The notes under the pieces were generated by a model that searched no databases, was not told the origin of the DNA, and saw only the letters and a list, made by a program, of their open reading frames with translations. Below are positions 3,133 through 15,803 of a stretch of 64,000 bases of DNA, in pieces. The DNA is from Harriotta raleighana (lineage: Eukaryota). How positions within the stretch are numbered: position 1 is the stretch's first letter; every line of letters starts with the position of its first letter. The position numbers and the translations under genes were made by a program. The stretch lies in NCBI GenBank assembly GCA_050575255.1, contig JBNZDD010013678.1, positions 3,602,154 to 3,666,153 of the forward strand, read 5' to 3'.

Positions 3133-3205
3133 AAAGTGATCCCAAGGTTTTGGAAAGGCAAGAACAGCAGCAGCCATCATATATCGCATTAAGTTATATC
3201 AACAG
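3133..3205 (+). CDS. JAZF1: JAZF1-family zinc-finger gene, coding exon 2 (73 nt; (E)SDPKVLERQEQQQPSYIALSYIN(R))
   Basis: Acceptor ttttgacAG ends at 3132 and donor GTataa starts at 3206. Manual translation matches JAZF1 DTDPRVLEKQELQQPTYVALSYINR. Too short for the ORF track. Probably a paralog (see findings). Confidence 0.95.
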
Positions 3206-3686
3206 GTATAAATTTCAGATTTTATCATAAATCCGAATTTTTCAAATGTATATGGCCACAGGGAAATATTTTAGAAATGGAAACTATTGAGAAACGTTTT
3301 GAATATATTAAAAATAGAACTAATGTATACCTTGTTATGCCATGCTTGGGAGACTAAATAGGTTAAAGAAACTACTTTAAATGAAAGTGGATCTTCAAAG
3401 TAGAAATCTATTATAATGTCCTCTCACCCTTCCCTGGTATATGGCTTTGTCGCTTAAGTGTGGTACACTCAGCTTCTGGTGCTAACTGACTGGCTTCCTA
3501 TACTTAAGAAATGGTCAAAATGACTTATTGCACATGCACACTTATTGCTCAGCAAGCATTGCTGATATCATTTCATGATGGACATAAACAGCAATCGATG
3601 ACCTGACACACAGCAAACAATGACAGCATTGAAGAGTTTTGCTTAAAACCCATTCTCCAAGCTATTGGGTCCAGTAGACCATATTA

Positions 3687-4515
3687 CTGTAAAACCTTGT
3701 TTATCCGGCACCCACGGGACCTGGCTAGTGGCGGTTAAATGTTTTTTCTGGTTGAACAGATTTATATTTAAAAAATTATTAAATATAATTTTTTTTAATT
3801 TAAAATTTATAAATTTATTTTAACACATACCATATTAATAATGGACGAAATAACAGAATATTCTATTAGTACATTATTATTTATACTTCGCAATTGCAGC
3901 ACTGATTCGACGGGAGGTAAACACGCGAGTTTAAAAAGCAACGAGTTTAGACCTAATTGCCAGCGCGCATGCGCACGCACACACAGACAGACACACAGAT
4001 AGACACATGCACACAGACAGACACAGACTCTCAAAGATATTCAGTCTGAATCCATCATATAAATTCTGTCCCCCGCCACGCCGTCCTCTCTCTCCCTCCC
4101 CCTCTCTCCCTCTCTCTCTGCAGCCCTGCCTGCCATTTTTCTCTCCTCGCTCCATTATGCTTTCCTCTCTCTCGCTCCCTTTCCCCATATCTCAGTAACC
4201 CCCCCTCTCTTTCTCTCCATTCCCCTCCCTTCCCTCTCTCCGTTTCCTCAACTCCCTCCCTCTCTCTCTGGCCGCTACCCTTAGCAGTATTTATCAGATA
4301 TACAGTACTTACCTTCCCAACGACAGGCATCTCATCCATGCGAATGGGGTAAAATTAAAAACTACGAGTTTTAAAAGGACCCGGAGCAAGTTTAGACCCG
4401 ACATTCAATGCGTCACCGGATAACTTCCGGTTGTTCGGATCGGGACTTTTTTTTTGAGGTGGCAGTTGAACGGGTTTTCCGATTATTCGAGTCGTGGATA
4501 AACAAGGTTTTACAG
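3687..4515. mobile_element. Non-autonomous Tc1/mariner-superfamily (pogo/Tigger-like) DNA transposon (MITE), 829 bp
   Basis: Perfect 20-bp TIRs CTGTAAAACCTTGTTTATCC (3687-3706) and GGATAAACAAGGTTTTACAG (4496-4515), flanked by TA on both sides. No transposase. Interior has CA/CAGA and CT-rich tracts. Confidence 0.88.
3975..4270. repeat. CA/CACAGA microsatellite-like tract and CT-rich low-complexity tract inside the MITE
   Basis: Visible simple repeats; these explain the spurious low-complexity ORFs at 3807-4339. Confidence 0.85.
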
Positions 4516-4864
4516 TATAATAATAATAAGTCAGCACAATTTTGAAACAAGTTTAAAAGCACTTCATAGAAAATACAGTGAAGTGAATTGGCTGTATATT
4601 GTGGCAGAATAAGCCTCTCTGTAATTCCAGTATCTGTTGAAAAATTTATTTTCCAAGAGCATGTTTCAAAAACATAAACATATTTTAATCCTATGAACTT
4701 CAGTTTGTGAATTCAGCTGAGAATCAAATGAATACTCGTCTGTGAGAAATCTAGATGCACTCGATCTATAAATTTTATCAGATATCTTGCATTGAAGAAA
4801 CCTCTTGCCTTATCCTATAACTGGTGTTGGTACTTGGAGGAGGTTTGATGAGCATTATACATGT

Positions 4865-12300: not shown

Positions 12301-12579
12301 CTCTGTATTGACTGTGGAACCCTCTGTGACAGAACTGTAATGGCTAATTACCCAGGATGCCTTTGGCAGTTGAAAACACAAGTGTGTTTGCTGTGAGCGT
12401 AGAGAGTTGTCTTGAATGCCATTTATCTATAATGGCTTCAAAGGGGAGGCAAAGGAGAGAATCCGACAAGAATCTTGGATTAAAGCAATTTATCTAAATA
12501 TAGATCCTTTTTAAAAAATATATCTTAACCTTTTCAATATGCCTACTTTATTGCCCTTGTTTTTTCTCCTGATTTCCAG

Positions 12580-12749
12580 GCAGCGAATTAGATGAAGAAG
12601 AAATTGAATGTGAGGATTCCGACAGTGACGAATCATGGACAACAGAAAGTGCTATTAGCTCTGAGACTATTCTAAGCTCAATGTGCTTGAATGGGGATGA
12701 TGAGAAGCCATTTGCTTGCCCTGTACCTGGCTGTAAAAAGAGGTACAAG
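12580..12749 (+). CDS. JAZF1: JAZF1-family gene, coding exon 4 (170 nt; (G)SELDEEEIECEDSDSDESWTTESAISSETILSSMCLNGDDEKPFACPVPGCKKRYK)
   Basis: Polypyrimidine tract with ccAG at 12579 and donor GTatgt at 12750. Encodes the acidic stretch, SDSDESWTTESAISSE and the first half of C2H2 finger 2 (KPFACPVPGCKKRYK). Confidence 0.97.
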
Positions 12750-15626
12750 GTATGTGTTGCGTCCAGTGAACAAGCTATACTTGGAAATGTCAATAAAAGT
12801 GCATTTAAACAAAAGGTGATATCTTTCTATTTGCAGAGCCCCACAATAGAAATTGAGCTCCGAGGTTTCATTTTTCACAACTTTACAAATTAGCAAGTTC
12901 TTGCCCAAGTATTGCCAGGAATCAGAAATGTTTATTAGAGTGAAGTTTGTTGAGGGAATAGAGGGTACAAAATCCCATTCTGACTGTTAGTGAAGATGAT
13001 GAGTTCCCCGGAGGCCAGACAAACCGTAGTGGGAGCAGCTTTTCACACAAAGAATACAGTAATTTGCCACATCCTGTCCTGGTCTTGTTTGAATGTCAGT
13101 CCTGTCTTAATTACCAGTATAACAAAGCTATTCTGTGTTGTTCTGGAATCTTTCTGGCTTCATGTCTGAAGCACAAGAGCCGTCCAGCTGAATTGCTCAA
13201 ACATCATTATTGAAAGAGCAGTCAGACTTGGCAGATTAATAGTCTTTGGAATGCCTGCTAGAATGGAGGGAACAACAAATAAAGGGTAATGGTATAGATG
13301 GAAGCCTAGACCAGAGCTTCTGTAGGGATAATGCAAGGCAAACCTGCACTCTTTTGATGAGCTGCTATTATGTGACTGAGAAGGAAATGGTTGTACGGAT
13401 TCAGATTTAACTAGTTTAGCAGATTTTCTGCATTAGGAATCTGGCAAGTTTTGACTGAGTTAGACTCAATACAGGCAGAATCGAAAATCTATTTTGATGT
13501 CTAACCGTGTAGGAAACGGTTAACTATTTTGAATGCTCATTTCTCCAAATTTTAATTCCAATTCATCTTGATTGATTGCTGAATTAATATTTTACATGAG
13601 CAAAGATTACCTCTGTGTTTCAACACCAAATCAGTATAAACATTTAAACAAGACAACATGCAGCACTGAAACTAAGCAAGACATAATTTCCATTTTAATG
13701 ACCTAGTGCTTAGATCGGAGTTTTACAGTTATTCCGTCTACTCTCCTCCCCCTCCGCCATCCTCTACTTAACAGCCACTGGCTGTTCAACTTTTAAGTGG
13801 TGACAGCTGTTTCTAAATTGTAATAGTTTCATATCCCCTTTTTGTTGGTATTTATCTGAATTTTGTTATGTAACCAATGGTTTGAACATATTTGGTCTGT
13901 GAAAAGGATTTAATGCACATGTTAATGCTTGCTCTGTCGATGAATATTTTGAACTGTATTTGTACTATATTTTGTGTACAAGTTTTAATGATTTCATAAC
14001 CTTTATGATCTTATAAAATTTGTTAAAAATATATAAACATGATATCATGGTATTTGAAATAGTGATACACTTTTGTACTTTGATGTTGTATAGGAATCCG
14101 GACATCTCTTGTATGATGCAGTCTAAAAAATGCCTGTTCACGCATTCTGAATGTGAACTTGAGTACAGTTGTCTATAACTAGTTGCAACACCAATGAACA
14201 CTGTGGTTTTTGTTTATGTTTTTGTTAAATCACTAAAAGTGATTTTAAACCTTGTGGGCATCAGAAGCTTCAAATAGCTTTTATTAGATTGTTCTCACTT
14301 CATACTACCAACTGAATGTAGTGTAATTGAACAATTAACTTAATCTAAGCGAGTTAATGGAAAAAAACTTGCCCAATTTTGTATTTTATCCAGTGATGTA
14401 AATTCAGCACTCTTACTCGGACATTTTACTCATTAATATTCTTGATTGATATTTTGTTCAACTTTTTTCAAACTAAACTTTATTGCTTTTCATTTATAAA
14501 TGTATAGTTTTATACGGGAGTAAGGAAATCAGAACCGCGTCCATTTTTCTTCAATTTGTTAATTGGAACACCTCATTGGACAGCAGAGAAATTTGATCTT
14601 GTCTGGTTCCTTGACAGTATAATTGTTAAGGGGTGCTTAGAATTCCAAGTATTTAATGACAGTTACAGGGTAAAGCTTAGCCCACCCACCATTGCAGTTA
14701 AATCTATTAGAACCCTGTGTTGTAGAGTTGACAGGGTTACTGCTCGTTAAATATGTTCAATGCAAAACATACCTGGGAAGAGTGATGCAGAAAATTATTT
14801 ATCCATGTAAATAAATGCAGTAGATGCAATCGTGTATCTAGTTATGAAGTTCAAAAATTATTGTTAAGGTACCTAGTACTTTATTGTTAAAGGCAGTAAT
14901 GTAGATTTGTACTAATGGTTTAGATTCCAACAAATGATGTAACAAGGTGAATATTGCTTCAATGTGTGTTGAGTGATGAAAGATGACGTAGGGTCTCAAA
15001 AATTAACATGCCTTTTAGAATGAGAAGGGAAAACGTTACACTTGTGAATTTTGAAACTTTGATGGTTTAGGTAAACACCGACATCAACTTTCAGACACCA
15101 TCAAAATAGGTTTCTATCTTAGATCAACTAAATTCTTTTTCAGTCTACTTGGTTATTTTAAAGCAAACTTGAGTAAATTCACAGTACTGGTCACTTCTAC
15201 TTAATCAATGTTTAGGCTTATGATAGAGCTGTATAGTCCTAGAATCGTAAATACCTTTTGTTGTAAACTTGTAAATAATAGAAGTCTCTGGACTCTATAC
15301 ACACTCTTTGCCTATGTTTTTAAAATGGAAAATGAGCAGATGTTTGAAATGCCAATTTCTAAATTACAATAGCCACATCATTCAACCCCATATTATCTCC
15401 AGTGAATAGCAAGGCAATACAAAAATTTCAGCTCCTTAATGGCATTGTAATAACCTTCCATTTTAATGCAACAGTGGTATCTAAATTCAGTGGTATCTAA
15501 AGAACTTAATTGCTGTTTTTCTCTCAGAAAGGTTACACAATACAATTTTTTTAAATCTCAGTTTTAGAGACGTATAACTTGAGATCTTTCACTGAGGTAA
15601 TTCTAAGCATTCTCTATTTCTGTTAG

Positions 15627-15803
15627 AATGTGAATGGCATCAAGTACCACGCCAAGAATGGCCATCGCACTCAAACTCGTGTTCGAAAGCCTTTCAAGTG
15701 CCGCTGTGGAAAAAGTTACAAAACTGCCCACGGACTTCGTCATCATACTATCAACTTCCACCCACCGGTGTCAGTGGACATGCTAAGGAAGATGCAGTTG
15801 TGA
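15627..15803 (+). CDS. JAZF1: JAZF1-family gene, last coding exon 5 (NVNGIKYHAKNGHRTQTRVRKPFKCRCGKSYKTAHGLRHHTINFHPPVSVDMLRKMQL*)
   Basis: Acceptor tgttAG ends at 15626 and TGA stop is at 15801-15803. Completes finger 2 and encodes finger 3; nearly identical to the JAZF1 C-terminus. Confidence 0.97.
   Translation, partial: NVNGIKYHAKNGHRTQTRVRKPFKCRCGKSYKTAHGLRHHTINFHPPVSVDMLRKMQL

What the first reader, a model, noticed from the sequence alone, without database searches (positions are those of the whole stretch)
3133..15803. Intact but divergent JAZF1 paralog, probably the HoxD-linked Jazf2 ohnolog
Seen: four coding exons (73, 197, 170 and 177 nt) with intact splice sites and frame. The zinc fingers are nearly identical to JAZF1, but the exon 3 middle (REQMRKRHQAKIIPALSSPVGRGGTPASPHPGNGSSAFPG) differs strongly from human QESLKKKIQPKLSLTLSSSVSRGNVSTPPRHSSGSLTPPV at the same length. 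The introns are compact (5935, 3242 and 2877 nt). Known: true JAZF1 is very conserved and ends tail-to-tail with TAX1BP1 next to HOXA; I see no such exons in the 48 kb downstream. From my recollection of comparative genomics, a Jazf2 ohnolog survives beside HoxD in cartilaginous fish but has decayed in mammals within the ATP5MC3-LNPK gene desert. Inference: this is that gene, a poorly characterised possible alternative NuA4/TIP60 subunit.
Basis: partly seen in the sequence, partly recalled or inferred. Interest (0 to 1): 0.75.

Follow-up and report, generated by a model that had tools for sequence, protein, structure and literature searches.

The report
Intact chimaera Jazf2, JAZF1's HoxD twin
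This is an intact chimaera gene almost identical to a second JAZF1-like gene already annotated in sharks and rays; it is likely the HoxD-neighbouring duplicate Jazf2, reported as a pseudogene in mouse, and is predicted to work like JAZF1 as a chromatin co-regulator, so it is a known but apparently unstudied gene rather than a new kind of thing.

Summary
Observation confirmed: four exons with AG/GT ends and an open frame encode residues 40-243 of a JAZF protein. It is 202 of 204 identical to an annotated Callorhinchus protein, 96-98% to shark and ray 'JAZF1-like' proteins and 71-76% to seven JAZF1 orthologues. Eight cartilaginous fishes carry both this copy and a true JAZF1. The window's clade is separate (100/100). 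All jawed-vertebrate JAZF1 group apart from it (92/95), but AU tests do not reject a later duplication (p 0.095 and 0.17). No own genome was held. In skate, a second Jazf lies between Lnpk/HoxD and Chn1 (PMC10115646 supplement), and a paper names a mouse jazf2 pseudogene beside Atp5g3/Atf2 (PMC9976460). The link to this gene is by elimination. Twelve of 14 TR4-contact residues and both C-terminal zinc fingers are kept; divergence is concentrated in residues 73-112, which are themselves strongly conserved within cartilaginous fishes. Verdict: very likely Jazf2 (0.87), already annotated under JAZF1 names; NuA4/TR4 function is inferred, not shown.

The parts
3133..3205 (+). Coding exon 2 (73 nt; residues 39/40-63), first half of the TR4-binding motif (3168-3205)
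   Evidence: motif defined in PMC9943680
9141..9337 (+). Coding exon 3 (197 nt; residues 63-129): rest of the TR4-binding motif (to 9177), paralogue-specific Pro/Gly/Ser-rich middle (9169-9288), conserved Thr-Pro run
12580..12749 (+). Coding exon 4 (170 nt; residues 129-185): acidic stretch and the two cysteines of zinc finger 2
15627..15803 (+). Coding exon 5 (177 nt with stop; residues 186-243): histidines of finger 2, and finger 3
16010..16015 (+). First AATAAA after the stop, candidate polyadenylation signal (others at 16801, 18101, 18361, 18369); not verified
30..68 (+). Stretch of intron 1 matching the predicted alternative first exon of Callorhinchus isoform X2 (11 of 13 aa), here followed by two in-frame stops
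15804..64000 (.). 3' UTR and gene-free downstream flank with SINE-like repeats; likely part of the HoxD 5' gene desert (inferred)

Best explanation
The window holds exons 2-5 of an intact chimaera gene of the JAZF family, distinct from JAZF1, that is likely Jazf2, the whole-genome-duplication sister of JAZF1 inferred to lie beside HoxD, and its protein is predicted to act like JAZF1 by binding the nuclear receptor TR4 and likely the NuA4/TIP60 acetyltransferase complex. Shown: gene structure, open frame, clade membership, a separate true JAZF1 in cartilaginous fishes, conserved TR4-contact residues and zinc fingers. Inferred: position next to HoxD (from skate, by elimination), origin before the split of cartilaginous and bony fishes, loss in bony vertebrates, and all binding. 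Mechanism proposed: residues 51-75 dock on the TR4/TR2 ligand-binding domain and hold it repressed (my odds 0.75); the N-terminal half recruits NuA4/TIP60 to promote H2A.Z/H4 acetylation (0.65); the rewritten but conserved residues 73-112, with shifted Ser/Thr-Pro sites, tune regulation or partner choice (0.4).
For: 202 of 204 identical to Callorhinchus XP_007888225 (P0015), 196-199 of 204 to five shark/ray 'like' proteins, 144-154 of 204 to seven JAZF1 proteins. Eight species have both copies: Callorhinchus, Chiloscyllium plagiosum, Stegostoma, Scyliorhinus canicula, Carcharodon, Cetorhinus, Hypanus, Narcine; contig lengths put the two copies on different contigs in the 3 species where the table allows the comparison. 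Trees: window clade 100/100 in 3 of 3 trees; cartilaginous plus bony JAZF1 together 80/91 and 92/95. Skate SI Table 10 (PMC10115646): on Leri_7C the promoter baits run Hoxd4 21.73, Hoxd11 21.77, Hoxd12 21.78, Lnpk 21.82, Jazf1-2 22.33-22.38, Chn1 22.65 Mb, while Tax1bp1-1 is on Leri_2C. The Callorhinchus HoxA block with JAZF1, TAX1BP1 and CREB5 shows accessions XP_0078986xx-87xx in the 19 visible entries, far from XP_007888225. PMC9976460 names 'the jazf2 pseudogene' with atp5g3 and atf2 near mouse hoxd. 17 of 338 proteins carry 40 or more of 56 diagnostic residues, all cartilaginous fish; none of the other 321 has more than 14. 12 of 14 TR4-contact residues named in PMC9943680 are identical, two conservative. 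Chimaera-to-elasmobranch identity is 196-199 of 204, as high as for JAZF1 (191-198 of 204), which points to purifying selection.
Against: No flanking gene was seen in this genome (none in the window). The skate 'Jazf1-2' was not tied to this clade by sequence, only by elimination, and rests on one table row. AU tests do not reject a duplication confined to cartilaginous fishes (p 0.095; p 0.174) or this clade grouping with bony JAZF1 (p 0.337). With a long-branched hagfish copy included, the vertebrate backbone is unresolved. Identity to JAZF1 over residues 1-124, the part shown to bind EPC1/NuA4 (PMC9296003), is only 84 of 124, so NuA4 binding may have changed. The accession of the HoxA-linked Callorhinchus JAZF1 sits in a cut cell and was not seen.
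Confidence: 0.87

Rival explanations
1. A JAZF1 duplicate that arose only in the ancestor of cartilaginous fishes (segmental copy) and then diverged; same predicted biochemistry, no link to the genome duplications.
For: All 17 of 338 proteins of this type are from cartilaginous fishes; a search with residues 73-122 found only 3 clusters, all sharks, among 15 candidates; AU p 0.095 and 0.174.
Against: Best trees put shark JAZF1 with bony JAZF1; the second skate Jazf sits at the HoxD position that mirrors JAZF1 at HoxA; a mouse jazf2 pseudogene is reported there.
Confidence: 0.06
2. An ohnologue from the HoxB or HoxC paralogon rather than HoxD, with the skate chromosome 7 gene being a different, third copy.
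For: The tree says only that it is a paralogue; flanks were not seen here.
Against: Only two JAZF types were found in cartilaginous fishes among 338 proteins, and the skate tables list only Jazf1-1 and Jazf1-2 (file cut when stored).
Confidence: 0.04
3. The true JAZF1 orthologue of this chimaera, merely fast-evolving in exon 3.
For: The source name of the nearest Callorhinchus protein is plain 'juxtaposed with another zinc finger protein 1'; AU p 0.337 for this clade joining bony JAZF1; a second copy was not shown in this genome.
Against: Callorhinchus has a separate human-like JAZF1 (P0107) and a JAZF1 in its HoxA block; no TAX1BP1 signal in 48 kb downstream.
Confidence: 0.02

Closest known systems
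Chondrichthyan 'JAZF1-like' proteins (Callorhinchus XP_007888225.1, Chiloscyllium XP_043549499.1, Leucoraja XP_055493903.1, skate Jazf1-2)
   Same: Orthologue: 96-99% identical over 204 aa, same diagnostic exon 3.
   Different: Two conservative changes against Callorhinchus; the predicted Callorhinchus X2 alternative first exon is closed by stops here.
JAZF1 (TIP27), HoxA-linked NuA4/TIP60 subunit and TR4 repressor
   Same: Same length, zinc fingers 2 and 3, acidic stretch, 12 of 14 TR4 contacts.
   Different: 71-76% identity; residues 73-112 only 11-14 of 40 identical; Ser/Thr-Pro sites at 90, 97, 100 instead of 99, 109; no TAX1BP1 seen downstream.
Mouse jazf2 pseudogene beside Atp5g3/Atf2 (named in PMC9976460)
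   Same: Likely the same locus, by position relative to HoxD.

Membership tests
JAZF family | Zinc fingers 2 and 3 in the C-terminal half | tested here: met
   Finger 2 31 of 31 as in 'like' proteins and 29-30 of 31 as JAZF1; finger 3 region 28-30 of 32
JAZF family | N-terminal zinc finger 1 | tested here: inconclusive
   Exon 1 lies outside the window; the finger is present in the 99%-identical Callorhinchus protein
JAZF family | TR4-interacting motif, residues 51-75 | tested here: met
   20-21 of 25 identical to JAZF1; 12 of 14 contact residues identical. Sequence only; binding not tested
JAZF1 orthologue | Groups with jawed-vertebrate JAZF1 | tested here: not met
   Separate clade 100/100 while Callorhinchus and sharks have another copy in the JAZF1 group; the AU test alone does not reject the alternative (p 0.337)
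JAZF1 orthologue | TAX1BP1 directly downstream, HoxA linkage | tested here: not met
   0 of 199 frames of 55 aa or more hit Pfam and no TAX1BP1 motif in 48 kb; short exons could be missed
Jazf2 ohnologue | Lies between LNPK/HoxD and ATP5MC3/ATF2/CHN1 | tested here: inconclusive
   No own genome. Met for skate Jazf1-2 between Lnpk and Chn1, linked to this clade by elimination only
Jazf2 ohnologue | Duplication older than the cartilaginous/bony split | tested here: inconclusive
   Best tree agrees at 92/95; AU p 0.095 and 0.174 do not reject a later duplication
Jazf2 ohnologue | Decayed counterpart in mammals at the HoxD desert | not testable with these tools
   Stated for mouse in one passage of PMC9976460; no vertebrate genomes to search
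NuA4/TIP60 subunit | Stable binding to EPC1/TIP60/MBTD1 through residues 1-124 | not testable with these tools
   Shown for human JAZF1 (PMC9296003; PMC7826843); the Callorhinchus orthologue is 84 of 124 identical there

The most novel reading that the evidence does not exclude
Cartilaginous fishes keep a second, functionally distinct JAZF subunit that builds an alternative NuA4/TIP60 complex through its rewritten, strongly conserved residues 73-112, and its gene body and 3' flank hold the ancestral HoxD 5' enhancers, mirroring HoxA enhancers inside Jazf1; the tetrapod digit 'gene desert' would then be the skeleton left after Jazf2 decayed. Hint: skate Hoxd11 and Lnpk promoters have listed contacts at 22.28-22.29 and 22.27-22.36 Mb, at or next to the Jazf1-2 bait.
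Probability: 0.2. Interest if true: 0.6.

Novelty: already known. Interest (0 to 1): 0.3.

Why it matters
It is a living copy of a gene that bony vertebrates appear to have lost, at a locus central to the fin-to-limb question. It gives an intact reference for mapping dead exons and surviving enhancers in the HoxD 5' desert, and a natural variant of JAZF1 (a diabetes- and sarcoma-linked NuA4 subunit) that shows which residues are free to change. It does not overturn anything: the protein is annotated in 18 named cartilaginous fishes and the name jazf2 is in print. Databases label it JAZF1 or JAZF1-like, which is worth correcting.

Tried and rejected
No own genome was held, so no tblastn for a second copy or flanks. 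Sequencing runs: no RNA holder listed among 19 runs; no reads were laid, so splicing and expression in this species remain untested. AlphaFold2 on an 8-row alignment gave mean pLDDT 38.7, unusable, and no fold search was run. No complex prediction was run: no TR4 or EPC1 sequence was among the session's sequences. Divergent full-length hits checked as possible bony-vertebrate Jazf2: of 10 looked up, P0220 is a second hagfish JAZF, P0269 pig, P0282 orangutan, P0240 cod, the rest invertebrate or unnamed; none carries the diagnostic residues; the genomic place of the pig and orangutan sequences is unknown. Only 120 of 445 hits and 150 of 1631 were listed, so a very diverged bony copy is not excluded. 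The 93-aa frame at 27241-27522 (-) had no Pfam match. Supplements of PMC8302630 gave 0 hits (file 4 not searched). No Callorhinchus HoxD block was found in the PMC9976460 table. Skate gene ids do not follow gene order closely, so they were used only as a weak chromosome hint. Earlier scan notes: nothing near, by sequence, by relatives or by words. Acemel et al. 2016 was not held.
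Full report
Observation. They correspond to residues 40-243 of a 243-aa protein; exon 1, with the first zinc finger, is upstream of the window. Downstream, 0 of 199 stop-to-stop frames of 55 aa or more hit Pfam and none of seven recalled neighbour-gene motifs matched. This is weak for short exons but fits a gene-free 48 kb.

What it is. Exon 3 found three clusters among 126 candidates, all shark 'JAZF1-like' proteins at 95%. 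Their members name 18 species of chimaera, shark and ray (15 of the 29 members of the main cluster were listed). The window protein is 202 of 204 identical to Callorhinchus milii XP_007888225, so the animal is most likely a chimaera; an earlier unchecked note on this genome says the same. A stretch of intron 1 (30-68) also matches a predicted alternative exon of the Callorhinchus gene, which supports orthology of the locus. Identity to JAZF1 is 144-154 of 204 in seven proteins. Eight cartilaginous species have both this protein and a human-like JAZF1. Source names are inconsistent: Callorhinchus and Rhincodon copies are called plain JAZF1.

Trees. I used 35, 22 and 19 rows chosen from the stored proteins (full-length, named, spread over lineages; most teleost and mammal isoforms left out). 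The window's clade has 100/100 in all three. Shark and chimaera JAZF1 join bony-vertebrate JAZF1 at 80/91 and 92/95 (three long-branched rows removed); with those rows in, the backbone is open. AU tests do not reject a duplication confined to cartilaginous fishes (p 0.095; p 0.174), nor this clade joining bony JAZF1 (p 0.337). So the tree shows a distinct paralogue but does not date it. Of 338 stored proteins, 17 carry at least 40 of 56 residues that separate the two types, all cartilaginous fish; the other 321 carry at most 14. A search with residues 73-122 alone gave 3 clusters among 15 candidates, the same sharks. No intact bony-vertebrate copy was found, within lists cut at 120 of 445 and 150 of 1631.

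Synteny, by proxy. No genome is held for this window. In the little skate paper (PMC10115646; I saw passages of the main text, searched rows of supplementary file 2 and its first part), SI Table 10 lists H3K4me3 HiChIP baits on Leri_7C: Hoxd4 21.73, Hoxd11 21.77, Hoxd12 21.78, Lnpk 21.82, Jazf1-2 22.33-22.38, Chn1 22.65 Mb; Tax1bp1-1 is on Leri_2C. I read the bait as the named gene's promoter because it is constant across rows of one gene. A second Jazf thus lies about 0.5 Mb from Lnpk, where Jazf2 is expected, and its being a bait implies an active promoter in skate fins. Atp5mc3 and Atf2 were not placed on that chromosome by these tables. In Callorhinchus, the HoxA block (NW_006890132.1) holds JAZF1, TAX1BP1, HIBADH, EVX1 and CREB5 with visible accessions XP_0078986xx-87xx (PMC9976460 supplement 3), whereas numbers around XP_007888225 fall between scaffolds ..066 and ..068; this is an inference from accession order. 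PMC9976460 (passages seen) speaks of 'atp5g3, atf2, and the jazf2 pseudogene' near mouse hoxd. The step from skate Jazf1-2 to this clade is by elimination: two types, one at HoxA.

How it likely works. For human JAZF1, residues 51-75 bind the TR4 ligand-binding domain and block coactivators (PMC9943680, passages; PDB 7xva matched). The window keeps 12 of the 14 contact residues, with Thr54 to Ser and Val56 to Ile. JAZF1 is a tight NuA4/TIP60 partner through residues 1-124 and activates transcription (PMC9296003, passages; PMC7826843, passages; bioRxiv 10.1101/2021.07.30.454360, passages). The Callorhinchus orthologue is 84 of 124 identical to JAZF1 there, most of the loss lying in residues 73-112. 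That segment is 35-38 of 40 conserved across chimaera, sharks and rays, and overall conservation equals that of JAZF1, so the divergence happened early and was then fixed. I infer a functional JAZF-type co-regulator: TR4/TR2 repression likely kept (0.75), NuA4 binding likely kept (0.65), and a paralogue-specific middle with moved Ser/Thr-Pro sites that may alter regulation (0.4). None of this was tested; a structure prediction was unusable.

What is known. Ten paper searches found 'jazf2' in 3 papers, one relevant; the other two I saw as listings only. None of the listings showed a study of the chondrichthyan gene's function; the library lacks most subscription papers. I recall that Acemel et al. 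2016 (Nat Genet) described Jazf2 at the HoxD locus and its decay; the paper was not held, so this is recall. The skate paper reports 19 ohnologues kept in chondrichthyans and lost in bony fishes, but the sheet named SI Table 3 holds other data, file 1 is a scan and file 2 was cut, so I could not see whether Jazf is on that list. In mouse, strong HoxA limb enhancers lie inside Jazf1 (PMC3873244, passages), which motivates the novel case. Also opened: PMC3897358, PMC12607386, PMC10119425 and bioRxiv 10.64898/2026.09.04.749526 (passages; none on a paralogue), PMC10506793 (no passage found), PMC8302630 (supplement search, no hits).

Verdict. Real, intact, very likely Jazf2 (0.87); already annotated and named in print, with function apparently unstudied. 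Interest 0.3.

Noticed in passing
window 29124-29420, 35250-35565, 42029-42291, 44579-44762, 49560-49835, 50168-50453, 60945-61240: A dispersed repeat of about 300 nt with a tRNA-like head (4 Rfam tRNA hits, 30-36 bits), shared body and short TTA-type tail, on both strands: likely a tRNA-derived SINE family, not tRNA genes.
   Followed up: partly
window 268-330, 18311-18373, 36417-36493, 39335-39411, 41851-41913, 56657-56719, 60344-60406, 62152-62228: A second short dispersed repeat with a TTG/A-rich tail (families D7, D17), resembling the 3' end of a LINE or SINE.
   Followed up: no
window 30-68: Matches the predicted alternative first exon of Callorhinchus isoform X2 (XP_007888226/7), but is closed by two stops here, so that isoform is probably not conserved.
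   Followed up: partly
P0220: Myxine has a second, fast-evolving full-length JAZF (52% to P0015) that groups with the first hagfish copy (97/93).
   Followed up: partly
P0269, P0282: Pig and orangutan entries are heavily decayed JAZF-like proteins (41%); retrocopies or remnants, genomic place unknown.
   Followed up: no
P0003, P0006: Heptranchias and skates have an isoform with an 18-aa insert between exons 1 and 2; no match to it in this window.
   Followed up: partly
window 39420-39466 and 39568: G-rich run and the window's single N.
   Followed up: no
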